A program made the position numbers and the translations under genes. A DNA stretch of 64,000 nt from a virus, in IMG/VR virus record IMGVR_UViG_3300036781_000236, positions 1 to 64,000 of that record; one strand, given 5' to 3'. This document shows, in pieces, positions 3,255-26,427 of this stretch; the stretch's first letter is position 1, and each line of letters opens with the position of its first letter. Under the pieces are notes generated by a model that was not told the DNA's origin, searched no databases, and saw only the letters and a program-made list of their open reading frames with translations.

Positions 3255-3773
3255 TCACGTCCGCGTGACACGGCGGTGCCTGCGACGGAAGCGCCACCCG
3301 AGGTCGCCAGGGGAGCGGAACCCGCGCACAGTGGTGCCGTCCTTGAACCCGATGTACGCCAAGTACCGCATGCCGTGGCCGCAGCACGCGAACCTTACCC
3401 CTGGAAGCACACCCAGGCACGGGTCAACATCATCAGGGTCGGCTTTCGTCATGTGGCAGGTGCGGCACGTCAGGCCGTCCCAGCGTCGGTCGGCGCGCCA
3501 CCCGATCCCCACCAGTGGCGTGTCCCACTTGACGATCTCGTAGGGACGTTTGAGCGTCGCCCACCACGAGCGGCGGCGGTTACGCCACCGGCACGAACGA
3601 CACACCCCGGACGGGTGGTGTGAGCAACGTGTCTGCTGCATTCCATGCGTGGTGAGCATCCATGCATTGATGCGTCCGCTAAGCCAGGGGTCGACCGCGC
3701 TAGGCACACGGTCGCCGCTCTCCGCGTAGATGACCCCGCCGTCTATGAATTCCAATCCGCCTTCTTCGGTCAC
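3255..3773 (-). CDS. Hypothetical Cys-rich protein
   Basis: Coupled ORF; DPCLGVLPGVRFACCGHG motif. Confidence 0.6.
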   Translation of the reverse strand: MTEEGGLEFIDGGVIYAESGDRVPSAVDPWLSGRINAWMLTTHGMQQTRCSHHPSGVCRSCRWRNRRRSWWATLKRPYEIVKWDTPLVGIGWRADRRWDGLTCRTCHMTKADPDDVDPCLGVLPGVRFACCGHGMRYLAYIGFKDGTTVRGFRSPGDLGWRFRRRHRRVTRT

Positions 3774-3961
3774 TGCGCCGCACGCCTGTCAGCCTCAGCG
3801 AGCAGCGCCAACTGGTAAGCCGCCTCACCGCGCCGCCCAAGTATCTCGTCTTCGAGTTCAGCGTCGGAGAGCATGCGGATCACGCGGCTGTAGTCCGGCG
3901 GCCGGTCAGGCCCAGGCTTGTCGATGGGATAGTGACGTGCCTTCCCGAAACCTTCGCTCAC
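3770..3961 (-). CDS. Hypothetical protein
   Basis: 4-bp overlaps with both neighbours. Confidence 0.6.
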   Translation of the reverse strand: MSEGFGKARHYPIDKPGPDRPPDYSRVIRMLSDAELEDEILGRRGEAAYQLALLAEADRRAAQ

Positions 3962-4905
3962 GGCTTCGGCTCCCCGAACTGGATGCCCTCGTCCGGCAGC
4001 CCTTCATCCGTGGCAACCGTTGCGAGACGCTCGTGCGCGGCAGCGAGAGCCTCAGCGACGTACTCCGGGTGGAGCTGCCCCCGGTTCTGCGCACGTCGTT
4101 CCGCGAAGCGCTGCTCGATCTTCACGAGCGAGTGTCCCTCCTCAAGCAGTACGGCGCGTAGTTCCGCGATCTCTTCCTCGGTAGCGGCCAGGATCGGCTC
4201 CATCGCTGCGCCCTCGCTCAGCCACGCGGTGAGCTTCCCAGCGATCTCGTCGCCGTCTTCCACGAGGTTCCCGGACTGCCCTTCCAGGCTGTCCACGTGG
4301 CCTGTCCACTCCACAAGGTGGGTGGTGCGGTCGAAGTTCCCGACAAGGGAGAACTCGTACTGGAAGTCGGCGTCCTGCATGGGACCGACGCCGAGCGCGA
4401 CAACGGACACCTTCTTCGAGCCGTTCGCCTGCTCAACCTCGACCTGCTCGTACTTCATCTTCGCCCTTGTGCAGACGATCACGTGACACTGCATCGAGTT
4501 CATCCTGTCCACGAACTTCTGGTGCAGAGGGCGTGCTTTCGCCCAGTCCCCGAACCGGGACGCAAGCTGCGTCACCCCGTTCGTCCCGTACCACTCGTGT
4601 GTTGCGGAGTCGAGGATCACGACGCCGCCGGGGGTGATCTGCTCCGCGGCGTCCCAAGCTTCGATGAACCGTTCCGGGTGGTGATCGTCTAGCACCTCGA
4701 TCAGCGCGTCGATCTTGAAGCGGTCCGCGTACAGTTTCCCGCGGTTAGCTTCCGTGTTGATCAGCGTGATAGGGAGCGTGCCGTCGAAGAGACGGGAGGC
4801 TAGCTCGAACGACCCGCGGCTTTTCCCGCTTCCCCCAGGGCCGATAAGCCCAACCCTGGCCCACACCTGCTCGCGTTTCACGTCACGTTCGATTGTGATT
4901 GGCAC
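3958..4905 (-). CDS. AAA_24 / Sak4-like P-loop ATPase (recombination)
   Basis: GPGGSGKS Walker A, INTE, ILDSATHEW, CTRAK, FQYEF; strong RBS GAAGGAG. Confidence 0.85.
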   Translation of the reverse strand: MPITIERDVKREQVWARVGLIGPGGSGKSRGSFELASRLFDGTLPITLINTEANRGKLYADRFKIDALIEVLDDHHPERFIEAWDAAEQITPGGVVILDSATHEWYGTNGVTQLASRFGDWAKARPLHQKFVDRMNSMQCHVIVCTRAKMKYEQVEVEQANGSKKVSVVALGVGPMQDADFQYEFSLVGNFDRTTHLVEWTGHVDSLEGQSGNLVEDGDEIAGKLTAWLSEGAAMEPILAATEEEIAELRAVLLEEGHSLVKIEQRFAERRAQNRGQLHPEYVAEALAAAHERLATVATDEGLPDEGIQFGEPKP

Positions 4906-20623: not shown

Positions 20624-21165
20624 GATCCTCCCGTCTCTGGGTACGCCGGGATCTCGACACGGAACTGGAGTTGGAAGCCGCCGATGCCGCCCTGCGTCAG
20701 CACGCTAATGGCGGGGTCGAAGAACATGGCACGTGTCTTCGCAGGCGGGAACAGCAAGCCATTGCGCTTCAGGTAGGCAAGATGGTTCCAGATCGCCCAC
20801 ACGTCGTCATCGACAGTCTTCGCGGCGGCGCTCATCGCAGCCGGGGTCGGTAGCTTCACGCCCTGCCCACCAACGACCGGGACACACCGCAACGTCGTGA
20901 CGGTGAACTGCACCAAGCGGAGCGCGATGTTCATTCCCTCCCGTGCCCCAGGCTGCAAAGGGGGCTGCAACGGCGCGGTATCCGCCAACGCCGCCGCACC
21001 GACATGACAAGTGAGCTGAGCGCAGTCCCAAACGGGCAGGCCAGGGCTGACGTAGAAACGAGGCTGCGCCCCCGCGTCCGTCGAAGCGACAGCCTCATGC
21101 GCAGCAGCAAGCAACTCTTCAGCCGCCGCGTACAGGTCACCGGGTCCCGTGCCCACCTCAACCAC
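20620..21165 (-). CDS. Tail terminator-like protein
   Basis: WDCAQL, LRCVP, QGGIGG pattern; position. Confidence 0.7.
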   Translation of the reverse strand: MVEVGTGPGDLYAAAEELLAAAHEAVASTDAGAQPRFYVSPGLPVWDCAQLTCHVGAAALADTAPLQPPLQPGAREGMNIALRLVQFTVTTLRCVPVVGGQGVKLPTPAAMSAAAKTVDDDVWAIWNHLAYLKRNGLLFPPAKTRAMFFDPAISVLTQGGIGGFQLQFRVEIPAYPETGGS

Positions 21166-21518
21166 AGTGGGCCTCCGCGACTAGTCGCGGTCGAGGTTTC
21201 GCGCGACCAGGTGGTGCGACAGCACGCGCACGAACCACCGGCCGCGCCGACGCACGAGCAGCCACCGTGCTCACCTGCGGCTGCACCGTCACCGGACGTG
21301 CGCGACGCGACACATGCGCCAGAGAAAGCCGCCTGCGGGCCTTCGAGTCACGGCACGCAGCCAACGCATCTCGCGTCAACGCACGCGCGTTCAGGCCACG
21401 ATGCGAAGGACTGCCAGTGCAGAACCACGCACGGAGATACGCACCTGCCGCCTCACCTGTGATCGTGTGGTCTTCCACCGACCCGTAGCCTACACCGCCA
21501 CACGGTCAGCGTCCCCTT

Positions 21519-21546
21519 AAAAACAAATCTCCCCGTGAGGGGAGAT
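21519..21546 (-). terminator. Intrinsic terminator
   Basis: ATCTCCCC-TCAC-GGGGAGAT followed by TTGTTTTT on the minus strand. Confidence 0.9.
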
Positions 21547-21830
21547 AAGTTTTCGAGAGACACGATTGCCTACGTGCAAGACCTAGACCCTGGCTTCGTC
21601 AATGAGCGCTTGGTCGGTCTGCCTACCTCTCGGGGGAAACCTCCCCTCCGCCGGATGGTGTCCGCTGGTCACGGCCCAAGGATCGTGGCGAGCAGCTTGC
21701 TATCGCTGCCTCCGCGCATCCCTTCACTCCCTGCTCGGTAGCACCTTCCCTCTCCCCACCAACGGGTCAGCCGGTGGGCGTTGGGTCAGTCACTCTCTGC
21801 CTGACCCGGAGAGCGACCCCGAATCCGACT
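21519..21830 (-). ncRNA. Putative ~310-nt structured non-coding RNA of unknown class
   Basis: Bounded by consensus promoter and intrinsic terminator; no credible same-strand ORF; multiple G-U-containing stems and 8-nt complementary loops. Confidence 0.75.
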
Positions 21831-21835
21831 CAGCA

Positions 21836-21864
21836 ACCATATAGCGGTATGTCAGGCTTGTCAA
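21836..21864 (-). promoter_or_regulatory. Promoter TTGACA-17-TATGGT
   Basis: Perfect -35, exact spacer, box-like CCGCTATATG at -10. Confidence 0.85.
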
Positions 21865-22067
21865 GCCGTGGCGTGTACACGGTCACGGAACGCACCTCGC
21901 GACTCGCTCATCGGCAGCGGGCGAGGAACGACTGGGAGCCTGTAAGGACGAGGACGACCCCATCCCCAAGGCTGCACCCACGGGTACACGGACGGCACGG
22001 GGATCACGCCCATACCTCCGCACGTCGGACACGTCCGGCAGCAACAACCGCACCCGACGATCATCAT
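21861..22067 (-). CDS. Small Cys-rich hypothetical protein
   Basis: ATGA-coupled to VWA gene; GCGCCCRTCPTCGG. Confidence 0.45.
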   Translation of the reverse strand: MMIVGCGCCCRTCPTCGGMGVIPVPSVYPWVQPWGWGRPRPYRLPVVPRPLPMSESRGAFRDRVHATA

Positions 22068-22807
22068 CGGTTCGTCAGGTGGTCGAGGAGTCCCGACTCG
22101 GTCGGCTTCACAGCCTCACCTGCGACACCCATGACCGCTGCGCCAGCGTCGCCCATCACGTCAACAGACGACATTGATACGGACGACCTCAGGGTGCTTG
22201 TTGCCATGCTCACCGATGCCATCGTCCGAGCCACGCTGTCGCTGCTCGCGGCCATGAAGTAGCCGTTCTGGCCGGAGTACCCGACATTCGCCATCGTCCC
22301 GACGTACTCGCTGGACTGGCCGAGACCGAGGTACACGAACGTCCAGTTCCCCTTCGCCTCGTACTCCCGCACCAGCGCAGCCAGTGACTCGGCGGTGTAG
22401 TCCGTGGACATGTTCTCCGCGCCATCCGTCATGGTCACGACAAGCACCTTCGAGTCCTGCTTCCCCTCACGGGCGACGCGCGCTTCCAGATCCTTCACCG
22501 TGAACGCGATGGCGTCATACAGCGCTGTGCCACCACCAATCCGGTACGTCTTCCCGGTCAACTGCTCGACCTCAGCGAGCGGCGCACCGACGTACACCTG
22601 CTCGAACTCCGTGTCGAACAGCGTCAGCGACAACAGCGTGTCGCCGTCCTGCTCCCGCAGGTCGTTCACGTACTCGTTGAACCCGTCGATCACGGACCCC
22701 GCGAGGTGGCCCATCGAGCCAGACTTGTCGAGGATCATCGCGACCGCGAGATCCGTCGATGCCTTCTTCTTGCGCCGAGGCTTCGCAGGCGCGCTCGTGC
22801 TACTCAT
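22064..22807 (-). CDS. von Willebrand factor A (VWA) domain protein
   Basis: MIDAS ILDKSGSM, GGTALYDAI, MTDGAEN, WTFVYLG; start at MSSTSAP. Confidence 0.9.
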   Translation of the reverse strand: MSSTSAPAKPRRKKKASTDLAVAMILDKSGSMGHLAGSVIDGFNEYVNDLREQDGDTLLSLTLFDTEFEQVYVGAPLAEVEQLTGKTYRIGGGTALYDAIAFTVKDLEARVAREGKQDSKVLVVTMTDGAENMSTDYTAESLAALVREYEAKGNWTFVYLGLGQSSEYVGTMANVGYSGQNGYFMAASSDSVARTMASVSMATSTLRSSVSMSSVDVMGDAGAAVMGVAGEAVKPTESGLLDHLTNR

Positions 22808-23084
22808 CGGTTGGTACCTCACCTTCGGTTGTGGTTCGGGACGCGAACGACGCCACAGCCTGTGTGAGCGATTCCAACCTGTCCGTAGATACTGGACGCG
22901 TGTTCGCTTCGATCTGGCACAAGTACGCAGGGCTGATGCCCGCAGCAGCAGCCACAGAGTTCTGACTCGCGCCAACCGCGAGGCGCGCGTTGCGTATCAC
23001 GCTGCCGGATGTGCTCTCTAGCCGTTCCAGCTTTTTGCGCTGCGCGGCCAGATCGAGGAGTTCAAGCAGAGGGCGTTCGTTCAT
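22800..23084 (-). CDS. XRE-family HTH regulator
   Basis: IRNARLAVGASQNSVAAAAGISPAYLCQIEANTR. Confidence 0.85.
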   Translation of the reverse strand: MNERPLLELLDLAAQRKKLERLESTSGSVIRNARLAVGASQNSVAAAAGISPAYLCQIEANTRPVSTDRLESLTQAVASFASRTTTEGEVPTDE

Positions 23085-23092
23085 TTAGCGAA

Positions 23093-23121
23093 ATGCTAAA
23101 GCAGACGGCCCTGCGTGTCAA
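23093..23121 (-). promoter_or_regulatory. Promoter TTGACA-17-TAGCAT, near-leaderless for the XRE gene
   Basis: Consensus elements; ATG 8 nt after -10. Confidence 0.8.
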
Positions 23122-23126
23122 GTTAG

Positions 23127-23199
23127 TCGGGGTGACAGGGTTCGAACCTGCGACCTCTTCGTCCCAAACGAAGCGCGCTACCAACTGCGCCACACCCCG
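23127..23199 (-). tRNA. tRNA-Pro(UGG)
   Basis: Cloverleaf; CTTCG-TTTGGGA-CGAAG anticodon arm; GGTTCGAAC T-loop. Confidence 0.93.
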
Positions 23200-23203
23200 A
23201 AGG

Positions 23204-23274
23204 CTGCGGGAGAAGGACTCGAACCCTCACAACCTGATCCAAAGTCAGGCGTCCTGCCGTTAGACGATCCCGCA
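23204..23274 (-). tRNA. tRNA-Gln(UUG)
   Basis: CCTGA-CTTTGGA-TCAGG; GGTTCGAGT T-loop. Confidence 0.92.
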
Positions 23275-23279
23275 ACGTG

Positions 23280-23702
23280 TTACGGCAGCCGGGCGGGCTG
23301 CTGGAACACTGGCGGTTGCTGATGCTCGGACACTGCGCGAAGTTTAGCACGGCGCTCTCGCTTGTAGCATCTCATGTATTCGTTCTTCTTTTCTCTACAC
23401 AACTTACACTTGCAATATCTTTTCCCTGTCAATCCACCACCATGTGGCACCGATTTCTCAAGCGAAGTTTTCTTCTTGTGACAACACTGACATAGAAGTT
23501 GGCATTTATGTAGTTCGTCAACGAATCTTTTATCTGAAAAACTCGTTCCTTTACCAATCGTAAAGGATTTTGTTGATGGATCGATATGATCGAACTCTAG
23601 ATTTTCTACCGACCCACATCGAACACACTTTCCTCCCATGTGTTCGATGGCAGCAGCACGGCGCGCGTGATACCTGTTGAGCATGTAGGACGCCATGTCC
23701 AT
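23280..23702 (-). CDS. HNH endonuclease
   Basis: CVRCGS...LEFDHIDP...KCQLLCQCCH; low GC; inside the tRNA cluster. Confidence 0.9.
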   Translation of the reverse strand: MDMASYMLNRYHARRAAAIEHMGGKCVRCGSVENLEFDHIDPSTKSFTIGKGTSFSDKRFVDELHKCQLLCQCCHKKKTSLEKSVPHGGGLTGKRYCKCKLCREKKNEYMRCYKRERRAKLRAVSEHQQPPVFQQPARLP

Positions 23703-23718
23703 GACCCAAGTATATCTG

Positions 23719-23754
23719 GGAAAGGAGCATGCGCTGCCACTACGCTACGGCTCC
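23719..23754 (-). pseudogene. tRNA-like 5' half (acceptor strand, D-arm, anticodon-stem strand) upstream of the HNH
   Basis: GGAGCCG-TA-GCGT-AGTGGCA-GCGC-A-TGCTC; partner GAGCA found at ~23323-23327 but no canonical T-arm. Confidence 0.45.
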
Positions 23755-23758
23755 GAGG

Positions 23759-23831
23759 TGCCCCGTCACGGATTCGAACCGTGGTGACCGGCTTGAAGGG
23801 CCAGCGTCCTTGACCGCTAGACGAACGGGGC
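23759..23831 (-). tRNA. tRNA-Glu(UUC)
   Basis: CTGGC-CCTTCAA-GCCGG; GGTTCGAAT T-loop; C at position 33. Confidence 0.9.
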
Positions 23832-23837
23832 AAGCAG

Positions 23838-23910
23838 CGCCCCGGACGGGATTCGAACCCGTGCATCCGCCTCGACAGGGCGGCATCCTAGGCCACTAGA
23901 TGACCAGGGC
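23838..23910 (-). tRNA. tRNA-Asp(GUC)
   Basis: CCGCC-CTGTCGA-GGCGG; GGTTCGAAT T-loop. Confidence 0.92.
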
Positions 23911-23911
23911 A

Positions 23912-23983
23912 AGCGGGAAGAAGGATTCGAACCTTCGACCATCGGCTTAGGATGCCGCTGCTCTTCCACTGAGCTATCCCCGC
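23912..23983 (-). tRNA. tRNA-Arg(CCU)
   Basis: GCGGC-ATCCTAA-GCCGA; GGTTCGAAT T-loop. Confidence 0.88.
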
Positions 23984-23991
23984 GCGACATG

Positions 23992-24030
23992 GACGCTATC
24001 ACGCCCGCGTGAGAGGCCAGCTATACGAAG
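23992..24030. promoter_or_regulatory. Palindrome + 4 bp + CCAGCTATACGAAG; on the minus strand gives extended -10 TGA-TAGCGT ahead of tRNA-Arg
   Basis: Directly visible between tRNA-Ser(CGA) and tRNA-Arg. Confidence 0.75.
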
Positions 24031-24117
24031 CGGAGGAAGTCGGGATCGAACCGACACAGCCCTTACAGGCCATCGCCCTTTTCGAGAGGGGTAAGCACGC
24101 CAGCCTTGCGTTCCTCC
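24031..24117 (-). tRNA. tRNA-Ser(CGA)
   Basis: CCCCT-CTCGAAA-AGGGC; long variable arm; GGTTCGATC T-loop; atypical D-arm. Confidence 0.82.
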
Positions 24118-24121
24118 AAGG

Positions 24122-24733
24122 CGGCGGGAGTGGGATTCGAACCCACGCACCCCGAAGGGCCTAGCGCGCTAGCAACAGAAGTCTCTCTAAGAGACACACT
24201 CAAGCGTGTAATCATTGATCTTACGAACTACCAGAAGATTTCGTGTAATCTCAGCGTGGTGATTCGGACAAATAGCAAACATGTTACCTACCTCGTATTT
24301 ACCGCCGTCTTTACCAGGAACAAGCCTATGGATATCAAAGGTTTTAGAATACTCGCACCCTTCAATCATGCAATATGTGAAGAGAAACCTTTCTGACAAA
24401 AAATCTAAACGGCGTGTTGAATCATTTCTTGCTGGACGTTCTCTACCTCTTGTTGGTCTTTGTCGCTTAGCGACACAACTCTTACTACAAAACCGTGACT
24501 TTTTTGAAAAGGGCGAAAACTCCTTATCGCAATTCTCACATCTCTTCGTTGGGAGACGGCGTCGCAACCCATCGCATGCCTTTGAGCAATAGACATTTCG
24601 GCTAATGACTAACTGACTAGGACGCCTATAAATAGGCGTACTACATACCGAGCACACAGTATTGGGTGTTCTCATCGTCTGCTGTGCCATAGTGTTTCAG
24701 CCGTGCCCTCTTGAACCACTTGAGTACCCCGCC
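24122..24733 (-). tRNA. tRNA-Ser(GCU) interrupted by a ~526-bp HNH-encoding insertion
   Basis: 5' half 24702-24733 GGCGGGGTACTCAAGTGGTTCAAGAGGGCACG; 3' half 24122-24175 TTGCTAG-CGCGC, variable arm, GTGGG-TTCGAAT-CCCAC-TCCCGCC-G; acceptor stems match. Confidence 0.8.
24187..24690 (-). CDS. HNH endonuclease with N-terminal CxxC...CSxxC zinc-finger repeats
   Basis: Two CxxC/(Y/F)CSKxC repeats; DIHRLVPGKDGGKYEVGNMFAICPNHH; low GC. Confidence 0.88.
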   Translation of the reverse strand: MAQQTMRTPNTVCSVCSTPIYRRPSQLVISRNVYCSKACDGLRRRLPTKRCENCDKEFSPFSKKSRFCSKSCVAKRQRPTRGRERPARNDSTRRLDFLSERFLFTYCMIEGCEYSKTFDIHRLVPGKDGGKYEVGNMFAICPNHHAEITRNLLVVRKINDYTLECVS

Positions 24734-24828
24734 GAGAACGGCTATGTGGTGCGGGTACTCATGAGCGGCACATAGTCGGGATGGTACCACGCTTGCGGTG
24801 CCCCACCCCTATGTGTAGGGTAGCAACC

Positions 24829-25680
24829 ATGACACGAAAAACAGTCAACCGCGATAAGCTGGAGGCATGGCTTGACGAGCAAGGTATCGTCGCTGACGTT
24901 ACGTTGCTGTTCGAGAAGCCACCGAAGGCACCACGCTACGCAGAACGGAACGCCGAAGCCGCACGTCTCTACACCGAAGAACGCCTGACGCTCCAGGAGA
25001 TCGGTGACCGCTTCGGTGTCACCCGAGAATCCGTGCGGCTGTGGTTGAAAGCAGCGAACGTACCGAAGGTTGCGGTGCGGTCCCGGACCACGGAGCGCCG
25101 TAACCTGCGGATCGCCGCGCTGGTGGAACGCCGCGACGAGATGCGCGCGATGTACTTCGAGTGCGGTAACACCCCAGCTTTCGCGAAGCGTCTCGGTGTC
25201 GGACCAGCTATCGCGAAAGGGGTGGTAGACGCGGTGATCGGACGGGATGAGTGGCGGTTAGCGAAAGTGTGCGGTGCTCATCGCGTCTCCGACGACCTCC
25301 TCAGTGGCTATCTCCGTGACGCGGCGGCGCAGGTAGGCCAGGATGTGCCTCTCACCTACAAGGCTTACGACGAGATCGCGGAAGCCCGTGGGTGGCCCAC
25401 ACACCAGACGTTCGAGTTGAGGTGGGGAGGATGGCGCGACGCCTGTTCCGCGAACGGTGTGCGGTGCAACGACGTTCGACGTTCCTACACTCGTAAGTGG
25501 CCCGCGGAGAAGTGCTGGGAGTGCGTCCGCGGACTCGCCGTCGAAATCGGTCGTGTCCCCACAGTCACCGAGTACGAGCTGTGGAGCAAGGGACATCCAG
25601 ACCGTGCGTCGGTTGCGATTGTGCGTCGCCGTATCGGAGGATGGAAGGACGTGATCCGTACCCTCAGCACCGAACTGTGA
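24829..25680 (+). CDS. HTH (sigma-70 region 4-like) protein with homing-endonuclease-associated repeats
   Basis: LTLQEIGDRFGVTRESVR; two P(L/T)TxxxY...R(W/I)GGWxD repeats; leaderless promoter TTGCGG-17-TAGGGT at 24793-24821. Confidence 0.75.
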   Translation: MTRKTVNRDKLEAWLDEQGIVADVTLLFEKPPKAPRYAERNAEAARLYTEERLTLQEIGDRFGVTRESVRLWLKAANVPKVAVRSRTTERRNLRIAALVERRDEMRAMYFECGNTPAFAKRLGVGPAIAKGVVDAVIGRDEWRLAKVCGAHRVSDDLLSGYLRDAAAQVGQDVPLTYKAYDEIAEARGWPTHQTFELRWGGWRDACSANGVRCNDVRRSYTRKWPAEKCWECVRGLAVEIGRVPTVTEYELWSKGHPDRASVAIVRRRIGGWKDVIRTLSTEL

Positions 25681-25683
25681 ACG

Positions 25684-25714
25684 TCACGCGGGCGTGACAG
25701 TCCTGCTATACGAT
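25684..25714 (+). promoter_or_regulatory. Palindrome + 4 bp + CCTGCTATACGAT; -10 TACGAT for tRNA-Leu with palindrome in place of -35
   Basis: Directly visible; tRNA begins 8 nt after TACGAT. Confidence 0.75.
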
Positions 25715-25722
25715 GCTGGTTC

Positions 25723-25805
25723 GCGCGAGTGGTGGAACGGCATACACGATGCGCTCAAAACGCATTGCCCTTCGGGGCTTGAGGGTTCGAATCCCTCCTC
25801 GCGCA
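25723..25805 (+). tRNA. tRNA-Leu(CAA)
   Basis: ATGCG-CTCAAAA-CGCAT; variable arm; GGTTCGAAT T-loop. Confidence 0.93.
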
Positions 25806-25890
25806 CTTAGGTAGAATGGGGCCAGCGGGCGCGAACCCGCCGACCCCGATACGGGGCCACATCACAACCACGACGAAGGAGTAGCCCCGA

Positions 25891-26427
25891 ATGCAGAACA
25901 CTACCGGAGGACTCTGCGAGTGCGGGTGTGGACAGCCAGCTCCTCTTGCTAAGCGGACAGATAGGCGTCAGGGGACTGTCAAAGGAGAGCCACAACGCTA
26001 CATACGTGGTCACAGTATGAAGTCTGGACCCGACGATGTACCTCGTGAGTGTGCTTGTGGGTGTGGAAAACTTACTACCCTGAGAAACGGTCATGCCAAG
26101 AAGTTCGTTCACGGGCATAACTCAGAAGTACGAAATATTACAGAGGCAGACTACACCGTAACCGAAACTGGATTCGGTACACCTTGTTGGATTTGGAATC
26201 GAACCACTAGCGAGGGGCGCGGTAAAGTACAGATTGACAAGAAGAAGACATACCCATATCGTGTCTTGTACACAATGCTAGTCGGAGAAATACCGCAAGG
26301 CTATGTGCTACATCATCTATGTGAGAACCCGCTATGTGTCAACCCCGAACATCTCCAACCAATGACTCAATCAAAACATATTAAACTACATCGAATACCT
26401 GGGCATAACCGAAGATCAGATTCCTAA
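25891..26427 (+). CDS. HNH endonuclease with CxCGCG repeats
   Basis: CECGCG, CACGCG, PCWIW, LHHLCENPLCVNPEHL; RBS GAAGGAG; low GC. Confidence 0.9.
   Translation: MQNTTGGLCECGCGQPAPLAKRTDRRQGTVKGEPQRYIRGHSMKSGPDDVPRECACGCGKLTTLRNGHAKKFVHGHNSEVRNITEADYTVTETGFGTPCWIWNRTTSEGRGKVQIDKKKTYPYRVLYTMLVGEIPQGYVLHHLCENPLCVNPEHLQPMTQSKHIKLHRIPGHNRRSDS

What the first reader, a model, noticed from the sequence alone, without database searches (positions are those of the whole stretch)
21519..21864. Stand-alone ~310-nt structured RNA with a kissing-loop pseudoknot
Seen (minus strand): TTGACA-17-TATGGT promoter, ~310 nt without a credible ORF, then a textbook intrinsic terminator. Hand folding gives hairpin 1 GGUCGCUCUC/GAGAGUGACU with loop CGGGUCAGGCA and hairpin 2 CCCACCGGC/GUUGGUGGG with loop UGACCC. 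CGGGUCAG (21801-21808) is perfectly complementary to CUGACCCG (21763-21770), and a second CUGACCC (21783-21789) offers an alternative pairing. Further stems are GGCAGC/GCUGCU inside AAGG(G)AU/AUCCUU, CGGA/UCCG, GGGGA/UCCCC, CACG/CGUG, and a long-range UUCGGGG/UCUCGAA closing helix. Many G-U pairs argue for RNA-level selection. I see no RNase P, tmRNA, SRP helix 8 or group I signatures. Inference: a new phage ncRNA class (decoy, scaffold, ribozyme or anti-defence), possibly partnering the adjacent VWA or Cys-rich proteins.
Basis: partly seen in the sequence, partly recalled or inferred. Interest (0 to 1): 0.85.

Follow-up and report, generated by a model that had tools for sequence, protein, structure and literature searches.

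The report
Non-coding promoter-to-terminator unit before phage tail genes
An uncultured soil phage carries a roughly 310-base stretch with its own promoter and terminator but no gene, which is probably a short regulatory RNA placed just ahead of the tail genes; the elaborate fold proposed for it is no better than chance.

Summary
The transcription unit is real. On the minus strand a TTGACA-17-TATGGT promoter (21864-21836) and the best intrinsic terminator found in window 1-40000 (stem 21546-21527) bracket about 310 nt with stops in all frames. There is no Rfam, tmRNA or protein-family match.

The proposed fold is not supported. Without the terminator hairpin the RNA body folds no better than shuffles (z -1.1). 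The "kissing-loop" complementarity occurs in 22% of shuffles and 32% of genome windows of the same size.

No diverged homologue was found, so covariation could not be tested. Only about 98-100% identical fragments turned up, in three soil metagenomes from two other studies. One fragment keeps the middle block and the terminator but replaces 65 nt between them.

One feature I found does exceed chance. RNA positions 183-192 pair with the 5' strand of the terminator (-19.1 kcal/mol; reached by 36 of 2000 shuffles and 3 of 899 genome windows), and a local hairpin competes for the same bases. That is an attenuator layout.

The unit closes a 4.9-kb accessory island inserted between the head-tail adaptor gene and the tail genes. 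Relatives lack it.

Best reading (0.4): a terminated leader RNA like lambda PR'-tR'. Rival (0.3): a trans-acting RNA. Interest is modest.

The parts
21836..21864 (-). Sigma-70-type promoter, TTGACA-17-TATGGT. The -35 hexamer overlaps the TGA stop of the upstream Cys-rich ORF.
   Evidence: 10 of 12 positions; this exact pattern with up to 1 mismatch: 3 sites in 64 kb against 0.07 expected; sequence.
21520..21830 (-). Inferred non-coding transcript of about 310 nt. The 5' end is inferred from the -10 hexamer and the 3' end from the U tract. RNA position p corresponds to window 21831 - p.
   Evidence: Stops in all three frames. No Pfam or PHROG hit for its frames. No expression data.
21650..21829 (-). 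5' domain, RNA 2-181, closed in the predicted ensemble by GUCGGAU/AUCCGGC (2-8/175-181).
   Evidence: pair probabilities above 0.7. z = -2.09, with 6 of 200 shuffles as stable. Prediction only.
21756..21777 (-). Hairpin 2 (CCACCGGC / GUUGGUGG, loop UGACCC), the most robust predicted helix of the body.
   Evidence: minimum pair probability 0.99.
21639..21648 (-). Candidate antiterminator strand GAGGGGAGGU (RNA 183-192), complementary to the terminator's 5' strand plus loop (RNA 285-294, window 21546-21537).
   Evidence: duplex -19.1 kcal/mol, equalled in 36 of 2000 shuffles and 3 of 899 genome windows. It forms in the fold of RNA 1-296.
21633..21646 (-). Local hairpin GGGGA-GGUU-UCCCC (RNA 185-198), which sequesters the antiterminator strand and so would act as an anti-antiterminator.
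   Evidence: probability 0.81. The role is inferred.
21552..21616 (-). A 65-nt segment (RNA 215-279) that one soil-metagenome relative replaces with 68 unlike letters, while both flanks stay about 98-100% identical.
   Evidence: table 5 and record 9 of run X5 (one 151-nt contig, depth 3).
21519..21546 (-). Intrinsic terminator: stem AUCUCCCC/GGGGAGAU, loop UCAC, U tract, with an upstream A tract.
   Evidence: (-17.9 kcal/mol including the A/U extension).
21669..21719 (-). A 16-codon sORF (ATG at RNA 112, GGGAG 7 nt upstream). Its UGA stop is lost in one metagenome variant (21671 A>G). Probably not a gene.
   Evidence: The 49-aa read-through has 0 relatives among 1.84 billion representative proteins.
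21476..21492 (-). A -10-like TAGGCT (21492-21487) lies 8 nt before the GTG start (21478) of the conserved 106-aa gene that opens the tail module. This is a possible separate, near-leaderless promoter.
   Evidence: Sequence. A relative has TAGAAT 7 nt before its GTG, and the HTH gene has TAGCAT 8 nt before its ATG. The motif carries little information.
21861..23121 (-). The upstream cassette that shares the terminator: promoter 23121-23093, HTH gene 23084-22800, VWA (YegL-like) gene 22810-22064, and Cys-rich 68-aa ORF 22067-21861.
   Evidence: No terminator-like site between the Cys-rich ORF and the RNA unit.

Best explanation
This is a real, ORF-free transcription unit. It forms the last cassette of a 4.9-kb accessory island (tRNAs, HNH-type ORFs, HTH, VWA, Cys-rich ORF) inserted between the head-tail adaptor gene and the tail module of an uncultured 88-kb high-G+C soil siphovirus.

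Host-type RNA polymerase would start at the consensus-like promoter and by default stop at the strong intrinsic terminator, releasing an RNA of about 310 nt. The 3' third carries three interlocking elements:
- a local hairpin (RNA 185-198);
- a strand (183-192) that can pair instead with the terminator's 5' strand;
- the terminator itself.

I therefore read it as a terminated leader or attenuator of the lambda PR'-tR' ('6S RNA', StxS) type. When the long-range helix forms, or a factor makes polymerase terminator-resistant, transcription would run on into the 106-aa gene and the tail genes 40 nt downstream. The short RNA is the by-product and may have acquired a trans role.

Shown: the promoter and terminator motifs, the lack of coding capacity, the island insertion, and the alternative pairing in silico. 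Inferred: the transcript ends, any read-through, and what flips the switch.
For: - The promoter and terminator are in the right order on the right strand. This terminator ranks first among the sites listed for window 1-40000.
- There are stops in all frames, and no Rfam, Pfam or PHROG match.
- The terminator's U tract ends about 40 nt before the GTG of a conserved gene on the same strand.
- The island is an insertion. In the complete 96-kb relative, the adaptor homologue (44% identity) is followed after 20 nt by the homologue of the 106-aa gene. Another relative has a different island there.
- Plus-strand genes inside the island separate the tail genes from head-gene transcription, so a nearby promoter would be useful.
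- The antiterminator complementarity is -19.1 kcal/mol. That value is reached by 36 of 2000 shuffles of the RNA's own upstream part and by 3 of 899 genome windows.
- Both switch elements lie in blocks that are 98-100% identical in a relative, and that relative replaces the 65 nt between them.
- There is precedent. Lambda PR' transcripts end at tR' as a 194-nt 6S RNA unless Q antiterminates (passages of bioRxiv 10.1101/2024.10.31.621285). The equivalent Stx-phage transcript becomes the sRNA StxS (abstract of PMC7547250). L5 and D29 make abundant non-coding RNA from the early promoter Pleft (passages of PMC5712189).
Against: - There are no expression data and no RNA run among the holders.
- No diverged homologue was found, so no covariation supports any helix, the antiterminator included.
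- The antiterminator statistic (1.8% of shuffles) was found after looking at several features, so it is only suggestive.
- A -10-like TAGGCT lies 8 nt before the GTG of the 106-aa gene, and the relative L016 has TAGAAT 7 nt before its GTG. This suggests the tail module has its own near-leaderless promoter. In that case the terminator simply insulates the island and read-through is not needed.
- By eye I see no good Shine-Dalgarno sequence before that GTG for translation from a read-through transcript.
- Relatives express the same tail genes without any such leader.
- At equilibrium the terminator fold is favoured by about 8 kcal/mol.
- I did not search for a Q-like or RNA-binding antiterminator gene.
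Confidence: 0.4

Rival explanations
1. A trans-acting stand-alone non-coding RNA, that is, a moron whose cargo is an RNA. This is essentially the first reader's view. The roughly 310-nt RNA would be the functional product (regulator, sponge, decoy or scaffold) and the terminator would merely end it. The tail module would start from its own promoter just downstream.
For: - It has its own promoter and a strong terminator.
- A -10-like element directly after the terminator, 8 nt before the next gene's GTG, with a parallel in a relative, fits two insulated units.
- The RNA's 5' and middle parts differ by 0-2 letters per 150 nt in fragments from two other studies. The end of the adjacent ORF shows 2 synonymous changes in 60 nt in two of those runs, and it becomes unalignable in the third.
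- The unit is accessory, being absent from relatives, as morons are (abstract of PMC3594210, listing).
- Large phage RNAs of unknown role lie near tRNA genes (GOLLD and ROOL; passage of PMC5737381).
Against: - The body is not more stable than shuffles, and the kissing loop is within chance.
- There is no covariation, no homologue beyond near-identical copies, and no antisense target of 14 nt or more in the phage's own genome.
- The host is unknown, so host targets are untestable.
- The antiterminator layout is unexplained by this model.
Confidence: 0.3
2. A functionless remnant. The promoter and terminator would be left over from a decayed or rearranged cassette at the edge of a mobile-element hot-spot, and any RNA made would be inert.
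For: - The island is full of homing-endonuclease-type ORFs and differs between relatives.
- The RNA body has no structural signal beyond chance.
- The only substitution listed inside the RNA body (21671 A>G, RNA U160>C) would break an MFE pair.
- One relative has swapped 65 nt.
Against: - A consensus -35, a good -10 and the best terminator of the region are all intact.
- Fragments from two other studies keep the 5' and middle parts at about 99-100% identity while neighbouring sequence diverges.
- No frame shows any trace of a former protein.
Confidence: 0.15
3. A small-protein gene. The 16-codon ORF has a GGGAG ribosome-binding site, and it extends to 49 codons in the variant that lacks the UGA.
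For: GGGAG lies 7 nt before the ATG. In run X2 the change 21671 A>G turns the UGA stop into a sense codon.
Against: - The 49-aa read-through has 0 hits at E <= 0.001 among 1.84 billion representative proteins.
- Its frames have no PHROG hit.
- There is no codon-position G+C signal: 0.56/0.65/0.63, against a GC3 of 0.84 for the VWA gene.
- The variant rests on one contig at depth 2.
Confidence: 0.03

Closest known systems
Lambda PR'-tR' leader ('lambda 6S RNA', 194 nt) and its Stx-phage counterpart StxS
   Same: A constitutive-looking promoter is followed within a few hundred nt by an intrinsic terminator, directly ahead of late structural genes on the same strand. A short non-coding RNA is the default product. 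In StxS that by-product also acts in trans (abstract of PMC7547250; passages of 10.1101/2024.10.31.621285).
   Different: There is no sequence similarity (no Rfam or BLAST match). I did not look for a Q-type antiterminator or a qut site. Here an RNA-level antiterminator helix is predicted instead. The unit precedes only the tail module, it is absent from relatives, and the downstream gene may have its own -10 element.
Morons (independent promoter-gene-terminator units inserted between phage late genes)
   Same: It has its own promoter and terminator. It is inserted between genes that are adjacent in a related complete phage and is absent from kin.
   Different: The cargo between promoter and terminator is non-coding. 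The definition is taken from the abstract of PMC3594210 as shown in the listing, and otherwise from recall.
Abundant non-coding RNAs made from Pleft in cluster A mycobacteriophages (L5, D29, StarStuff)
   Same: They occur in actinobacteriophages, as a transcript region of several hundred nt at the head of an operon with no ORF above about 30 codons, and their function is unknown (passages of PMC5712189).
   Different: They are early-operon leaders at the genome end and are shown experimentally to be abundant and toxic. Here nothing is known about expression, and blastn against 50,697 phage records found no match.
Terminator/antiterminator attenuators and riboswitch expression platforms
   Same: There are mutually exclusive pairings of one strand with a local hairpin, with the terminator's 5' strand, or not at all. 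A larger 5' domain is closed by a helix that abuts the switch.
   Different: No known aptamer family matches. The two antiterminator strands are about 90 nt apart, with a replaceable insert between them. No ligand or factor is known, and covariation is untestable.
GOLLD and ROOL large RNAs of phages and prophages
   Same: They are phage-borne non-coding RNAs of unknown role, often near tRNA genes (passage of PMC5737381). This unit lies 1.3 kb from a tRNA array.
   Different: There is no Rfam match. This unit is about 310 nt rather than about 580-800 nt, and it has no evidence of an ornate conserved fold.

Membership tests
Any Rfam 15 family (including tmRNA, RNase P, 6S, SRP, group I intron, T-box, GOLLD, ROOL, HEARO) | A covariance-model score at or above the family's gathering score | tested here: not met
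   the only matches in the window are 6 tRNAs., in E-value mode over 21300-22100: the best scores are 12-18 bits, against gathering scores of 37-80. ARAGORN finds no tmRNA; no RNase P RNA in the 88-kb record.
DUF3800-XI RNA (the weak lead) | A score at or above 37.8 bits, and association with a DUF3800 gene | tested here: not met
   17.0 bits, E = 0.32. No DUF3800 (PF12686) match in the whole record. I did not see the supplementary description of the motif in PMC5737381.
Moron | Own promoter and own terminator | tested here: met
   Consensus scans only. Not shown experimentally.
Moron | Inserted between genes that are adjacent in related phages | tested here: met
   In L016 the adaptor homologue (3259-4548) is followed after 20 nt by the 111-aa homologue (4569-4904). 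In the window these two genes are separated by 21519-26415.
Moron | Protein-coding cargo | tested here: not met
   Stops in all frames. No family hits. 0 relatives for the read-through sORF.
Lambda PR'-tR' type late leader | A promoter followed by a terminator immediately upstream of late structural genes on the same strand | tested here: met
   There are 40 nt from the U tract to the GTG of the first tail-module gene.
Lambda PR'-tR' type late leader | A Q-family antiterminator gene and a qut/pause site at the promoter | not tested
   I ran no search for Q-like proteins. The host and its polymerase are unknown.
Lambda PR'-tR' type late leader | Downstream genes depend on read-through because they have no promoter of their own | tested here: inconclusive
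   The sigma-70 scan finds none. However, a -10-like TAGGCT lies 8 nt before the GTG, with a parallel in L016.
Terminator/antiterminator attenuator or riboswitch | Mutually exclusive antiterminator and terminator helices | tested here: met
   In silico only. RNA 183-192 pairs with 285-294 at -19.1 kcal/mol, reached by 36 of 2000 shuffles and 3 of 899 genome windows.
Terminator/antiterminator attenuator or riboswitch | A conserved sensor domain supported by covariation | not testable with these tools
   Only copies that are about 98-100% identical were found. No diverged homologue was found.
   The 8-nt complement exists. An equal or better one occurs in 440 of 2000 shuffles and 201 of 632 genome windows. 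The MFE uses a different pairing.

The most novel reading that the evidence does not exclude
A previously undescribed actinophage riboregulator. A conserved 5' sensor domain of about 180 nt would be coupled to a terminator/antiterminator switch, with a swappable 3' insert. It would gate tail-gene transcription at the edge of a tRNA/VWA accessory island, and its terminated form could also act in trans on host or phage RNAs.
Probability: 0.12. Interest if true: 0.65.

Novelty: new member of a known kind. Interest (0 to 1): 0.3.

Why it matters
If it is real and regulated, this would be an RNA-level checkpoint for late (tail) gene expression in a high-G+C soil phage. Little seems to be known about how late transcription is controlled in actinophages; for L5 relatives, PMC5712189 notes that where late transcription initiates was an open question (passage). 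It would also be another case where the terminated by-product of antitermination control is available as a small RNA, as in StxS. As things stand it is an orphan. It comes from one uncultured phage lineage with an unknown host and no expression data, and the feature that made it look exceptional, an ornate fold with a kissing loop, does not exceed chance.

Tried and rejected
Known RNA families:
- Rfam at gathering scores and in E-value mode gave nothing credible.
- ARAGORN found no tmRNA.
- RNase P RNA was not found in the whole record.
- Weak CRISPR-repeat hits (E = 4-10) fall on the terminator hairpin and were rejected as hairpin look-alikes.
- The DUF3800-XI hit was rejected (17 bits; no DUF3800 gene).
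- A T-box-like GGUGCUACCGAG stretch, noticed by eye and compared from recall, was rejected: no T-box hit even at E <= 10, and it lies far from the terminator.
- A retron or DGR reading was rejected because the record holds no reverse transcriptase.

Homologue hunts that found nothing:
- blastn against 50,697 phage records.
- nhmmer and blastn against 20 loci around homologues of the 181-aa neighbour.
- BLAST against four whole related virus records. A fifth handle, L003, is not held and was not searched.
- 80 loci around VWA homologues.
- A gapped motif scan of IMG/VR, which gave 8 chance hits.
- Three exact 20-mer scans of IMG/VR, which gave 0 hits each.
- Two scans of genome contigs with neighbouring proteins.
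- The scan's own earlier notes, searched by sequence and by relatives.
- Searching relatives of the window's genome, which is not possible for a virus record. As a result I never obtained a bacterial genome handle, so host genomes were not searched.

Closest relatives out of reach:
These are the Cys-rich ORF homologue at 62% identity, the VWA homologues at 65-67% and the 181-aa homologues at 69-70%.

Expression:
No RNA holder was listed among the sequencing runs.

Other checks:
- Antisense targets within the phage genome: the longest matches are 13 nt (E = 0.33), at chance level.
- An apparent ORF-free gap of 550-1200 nt downstream of VWA genes in low-G+C phages was an artefact of my ORF finder. 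It is a ribonucleotide-reductase-like gene that runs off the locus (named by eye from the translation).
- I did not build a single-sequence covariance model. With no alignment, it would add little to nhmmer.
Full report
WHAT IS THERE. The window is the first 64 kb of an 87,998-bp IMG/VR virus record that CheckV rates 92% complete. On the minus strand the scan finds TTGACA-17-TATGGT at 21864..21836, matching 10 of 12 positions (2 sites in 2.7 kb against 0.4 expected). It also finds an intrinsic terminator with its stem at 21546..21527: 8 pairs, 5 of them G-C, loop UCAC, tail TTTGTTTTT. That terminator ranks first among the terminator-like sites listed for window 1-40000. Between promoter and terminator all three minus-strand frames are closed. 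The longest stop-to-stop stretch is 47 codons, and the pieces match no PHROG family. Rfam at gathering scores finds only six tRNAs in the window. In E-value mode nothing exceeds 18 bits. ARAGORN finds no tmRNA, and RNase P RNA is absent from the record. The quoted motifs lie where stated.

CONTEXT. Downstream on the same strand come these genes:
- a 106-aa Arg-rich gene (21478-21158);
- a 181-aa gene;
- an HK97-gp10-like gene (Pfam);
- two small ORFs that I take from their position to be tail-assembly chaperones;
- a 1405-aa ORF that I take from its size and position to be the tape-measure protein.

The 106-aa gene is real. It aligns with the gene in the same position in two relatives (43-44% identity).

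Upstream lie these features:
- a Cys-rich 68-aa ORF whose stop overlaps the -35 hexamer;
- a VWA gene (weak Pfam VWA hit; phrog_7371; named 'YegL' by JGI);
- an HTH gene with its own TTGACA-17-TAGCAT promoter;
- six tRNA genes interspersed with Cys-rich ORFs;
- two plus-strand homing-endonuclease-type genes;
- the head-tail adaptor gene (phrog_783).

In the complete 96-kb relative the adaptor homologue (44% identity) is followed after 20 nt by the homologue of the 106-aa gene. In another relative a different island occupies the same slot. It sits on the opposite strand, and its products look by eye like an HNH endonuclease, a polynucleotide kinase/phosphatase and an RNA ligase. So 21519-26415 is an accessory island, and the non-coding unit is its last cassette. 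Its U tract ends about 40 nt from the first tail-module gene.

HOMOLOGUES. I found no diverged homologue in any of these searches:
- blastn against 50,697 phage records;
- nhmmer and blastn against 20 loci around homologues of the 181-aa gene;
- BLAST against four whole related virus records;
- 80 IMG/VR loci around VWA homologues, all at 43% identity or less;
- four pattern scans of IMG/VR.

These relatives share 62-70% protein identity.

NEAR-IDENTICAL COPIES. Logan contigs of three soil metagenomes from two studies other than the likely source hold 151-nt pieces of the unit.
- Run X2 covers 21617-21766 with 2 differences and 21773-21923 with 3.
- Run X4 covers 21748-21898 with 3 differences.
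- Run X5 covers 21748-21871 with 1 difference, then runs on unlike the window.

The shared differences are 21832 (between the -10 hexamer and the inferred start) and 21876 and 21885. By my reading of the frame, the last two are synonymous third positions of the Cys-rich ORF. One X5 contig matches 21509-21551 with 1 difference and 21617-21656 with none, but has 68 other letters in place of 21552-21616. The terminator and the adjoining middle block are therefore kept while 65 nt between them are exchanged. Depths are 2-3, so each observation rests on very little data.

IS IT A STRUCTURED RNA? The full stretch folds at -137.7 kcal/mol, z = -3.3, but this is mostly the terminator.
- RNA 1-277 has z = -1.11, and 28 of 200 shuffles fold as well. 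RNA 1-181 has z = -2.09, with 6 of 200 shuffles as stable.
- Against same-strand 312-nt windows of this window, the stretch lies at about -1.7 sd by my arithmetic from the regression. It is less extreme than the ten windows listed there.
- The 8-nt 'kissing' complement is matched or beaten in 440 of 2000 shuffles and in 201 of 632 genome windows. A 7-mer with two complements appears in 171 of 2000 shuffles and 105 of 632 windows.
- The ensemble keeps hairpin 2 (p = 0.99), the AGGGAU/AUCCUU-GCAGC/GCUGC hairpin and GGGGA/UCCCC. It replaces hairpin 1, CACG/CGUG, CGGA/UCCG and the proposed closing helix with other pairings.

A FEATURE THAT DOES EXCEED CHANCE. If the 3' half of the terminator is withheld, its 5' strand plus loop (RNA 285-294) pairs with RNA 183-192 in a 10-pair helix. 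The duplex energy of -19.1 kcal/mol is reached by 36 of 2000 dinucleotide shuffles of the upstream RNA and by 3 of 899 other genome windows. The same upstream strand is otherwise held in the local hairpin 185-198. Local hairpin, long-range helix and terminator together form the classic anti-antiterminator / antiterminator / terminator arrangement. The predicted helix 2-8/175-181, which closes the 5' domain, abuts it. Both switch elements fall in the blocks conserved in run X5, and the exchanged 65 nt lie between them. I found this after testing several other features, so I treat it as suggestive.

CIS OR TRANS? For a cis role:
- the position directly ahead of the tail module;
- the switch layout;
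- the opposite-strand genes in the island, which separate tail-gene from head-gene transcription.

Against a cis role:
- TAGGCT lies 8 nt before the GTG of the 106-aa gene.
- The relative L016 has TAGAAT 7 nt before its GTG.
- The HTH gene has TAGCAT 8 nt before its ATG.

These three cases look like near-leaderless promoters, a style I recall as common in Actinobacteria. If so, the terminator would simply insulate the island from a separately started tail operon. The two roles are not exclusive. Lambda's PR'-tR' transcript is both the substrate of Q antitermination and a detectable 194-nt RNA with Hfq-linked targets (passages). In Stx phages the equivalent transcript becomes the sRNA StxS (abstract).

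CODING ALTERNATIVES. A 16-codon ORF with a GGGAG ribosome-binding site lies at 21719-21669. The X2 variant removes its stop and would give 49 codons. That read-through has no relative at E <= 0.001 among 1.84 billion representative proteins, and the region has no codon-position G+C signal.

PARTNER IDEA. The VWA family is widespread: 216 phage records and 318 proteins at E <= 1e-20. It is often next to tRNA arrays (33 of 80 loci; also in Streptomyces phage Bmoc). None of those 80 loci has this RNA. The Cys-rich ORF has a single relative, at 62% identity. Nothing links either protein to the RNA beyond adjacency.

VERDICT. The transcription unit is real and has no known family, but the ornate fold is not supported. 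The most likely reading is a default-terminated leader RNA with a built-in antiterminator at the junction between the accessory island and the tail operon (0.4). Next come a purely trans-acting RNA (0.3), an inert remnant (0.15) and a small protein gene (0.03). It is a new, so far orphan, member of a known kind. Interest is modest unless diverged homologues or expression data change the picture.

Noticed in passing
window 22064-24117; loci L034-L113; L032: The VWA ('YegL'-like, phrog_7371) gene family is strikingly often the first gene after a tRNA array in phage contigs. 33 of 80 IMG/VR loci have a tRNA within 2.5 kb. In 31 of them the tRNA is upstream on the same strand, and in none is it downstream. 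Many of these loci are related low-G+C phages, so they are not independent. In Streptomyces phage Bmoc the homologue gp97 directly precedes a tRNA array. The window shows the same order: tRNAs, HTH, VWA.
   Followed up: partly
window 21519-26415; L003 1634-4595; L016 4548-4569: The junction between the head-tail adaptor gene and the Arg-rich 106-aa gene is a hot-spot for accessory cargo with an RNA theme. The window has tRNAs plus homing-endonuclease-type ORFs. One relative has opposite-strand ORFs that look by eye like an HNH endonuclease, a polynucleotide kinase/phosphatase and an RNA ligase. The complete 96-kb relative has nothing there.
   Followed up: partly
window 21487-21492, 23093-23098; L016 4556-4561: -10-like hexamers (TAGGCT, TAGCAT, TAGAAT) sit 7-8 nt before the start codons of three genes. 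This suggests near-leaderless transcripts, a style I recall as common in Actinobacteria.
   Followed up: no
window 26234-26262 (+): A promoter-like site, TTGACAAG...GACATACC...ATATCGT, shares TTGACAAG and GACATACC with the RNA's promoter. It lies inside the low-G+C HNH_3 ORF 25891-26427, and I identified no obvious downstream gene for it.
   Followed up: no
window 21158-21478 (-): The conserved 106-aa gene is Arg-rich with an unusual codon-position G+C (0.75/0.67/0.61, lowest at the third position). It is nevertheless conserved at the protein level in L003, L016 and, by eye, L002. It has no Pfam or PHROG family.
   Followed up: partly
window 24187-24690 and 23280-23702 (-): The two Cys-rich ORFs inside the tRNA array, which earlier notes called HNH ORFs, gave no Pfam hit at E <= 0.01. 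ARAGORN calls an intact tRNA-Ser (anticodon cga) at 24030-24117, next to the first of them.
   Followed up: no
loci L041, L043, L051, L052, L062, L075, L090 and others, about 200 nt downstream of the VWA gene: In a group of low-G+C phages the gene after VWA looks, by eye from the translation, like a ribonucleotide reductase. In L041 it may carry an intein.
   Followed up: no
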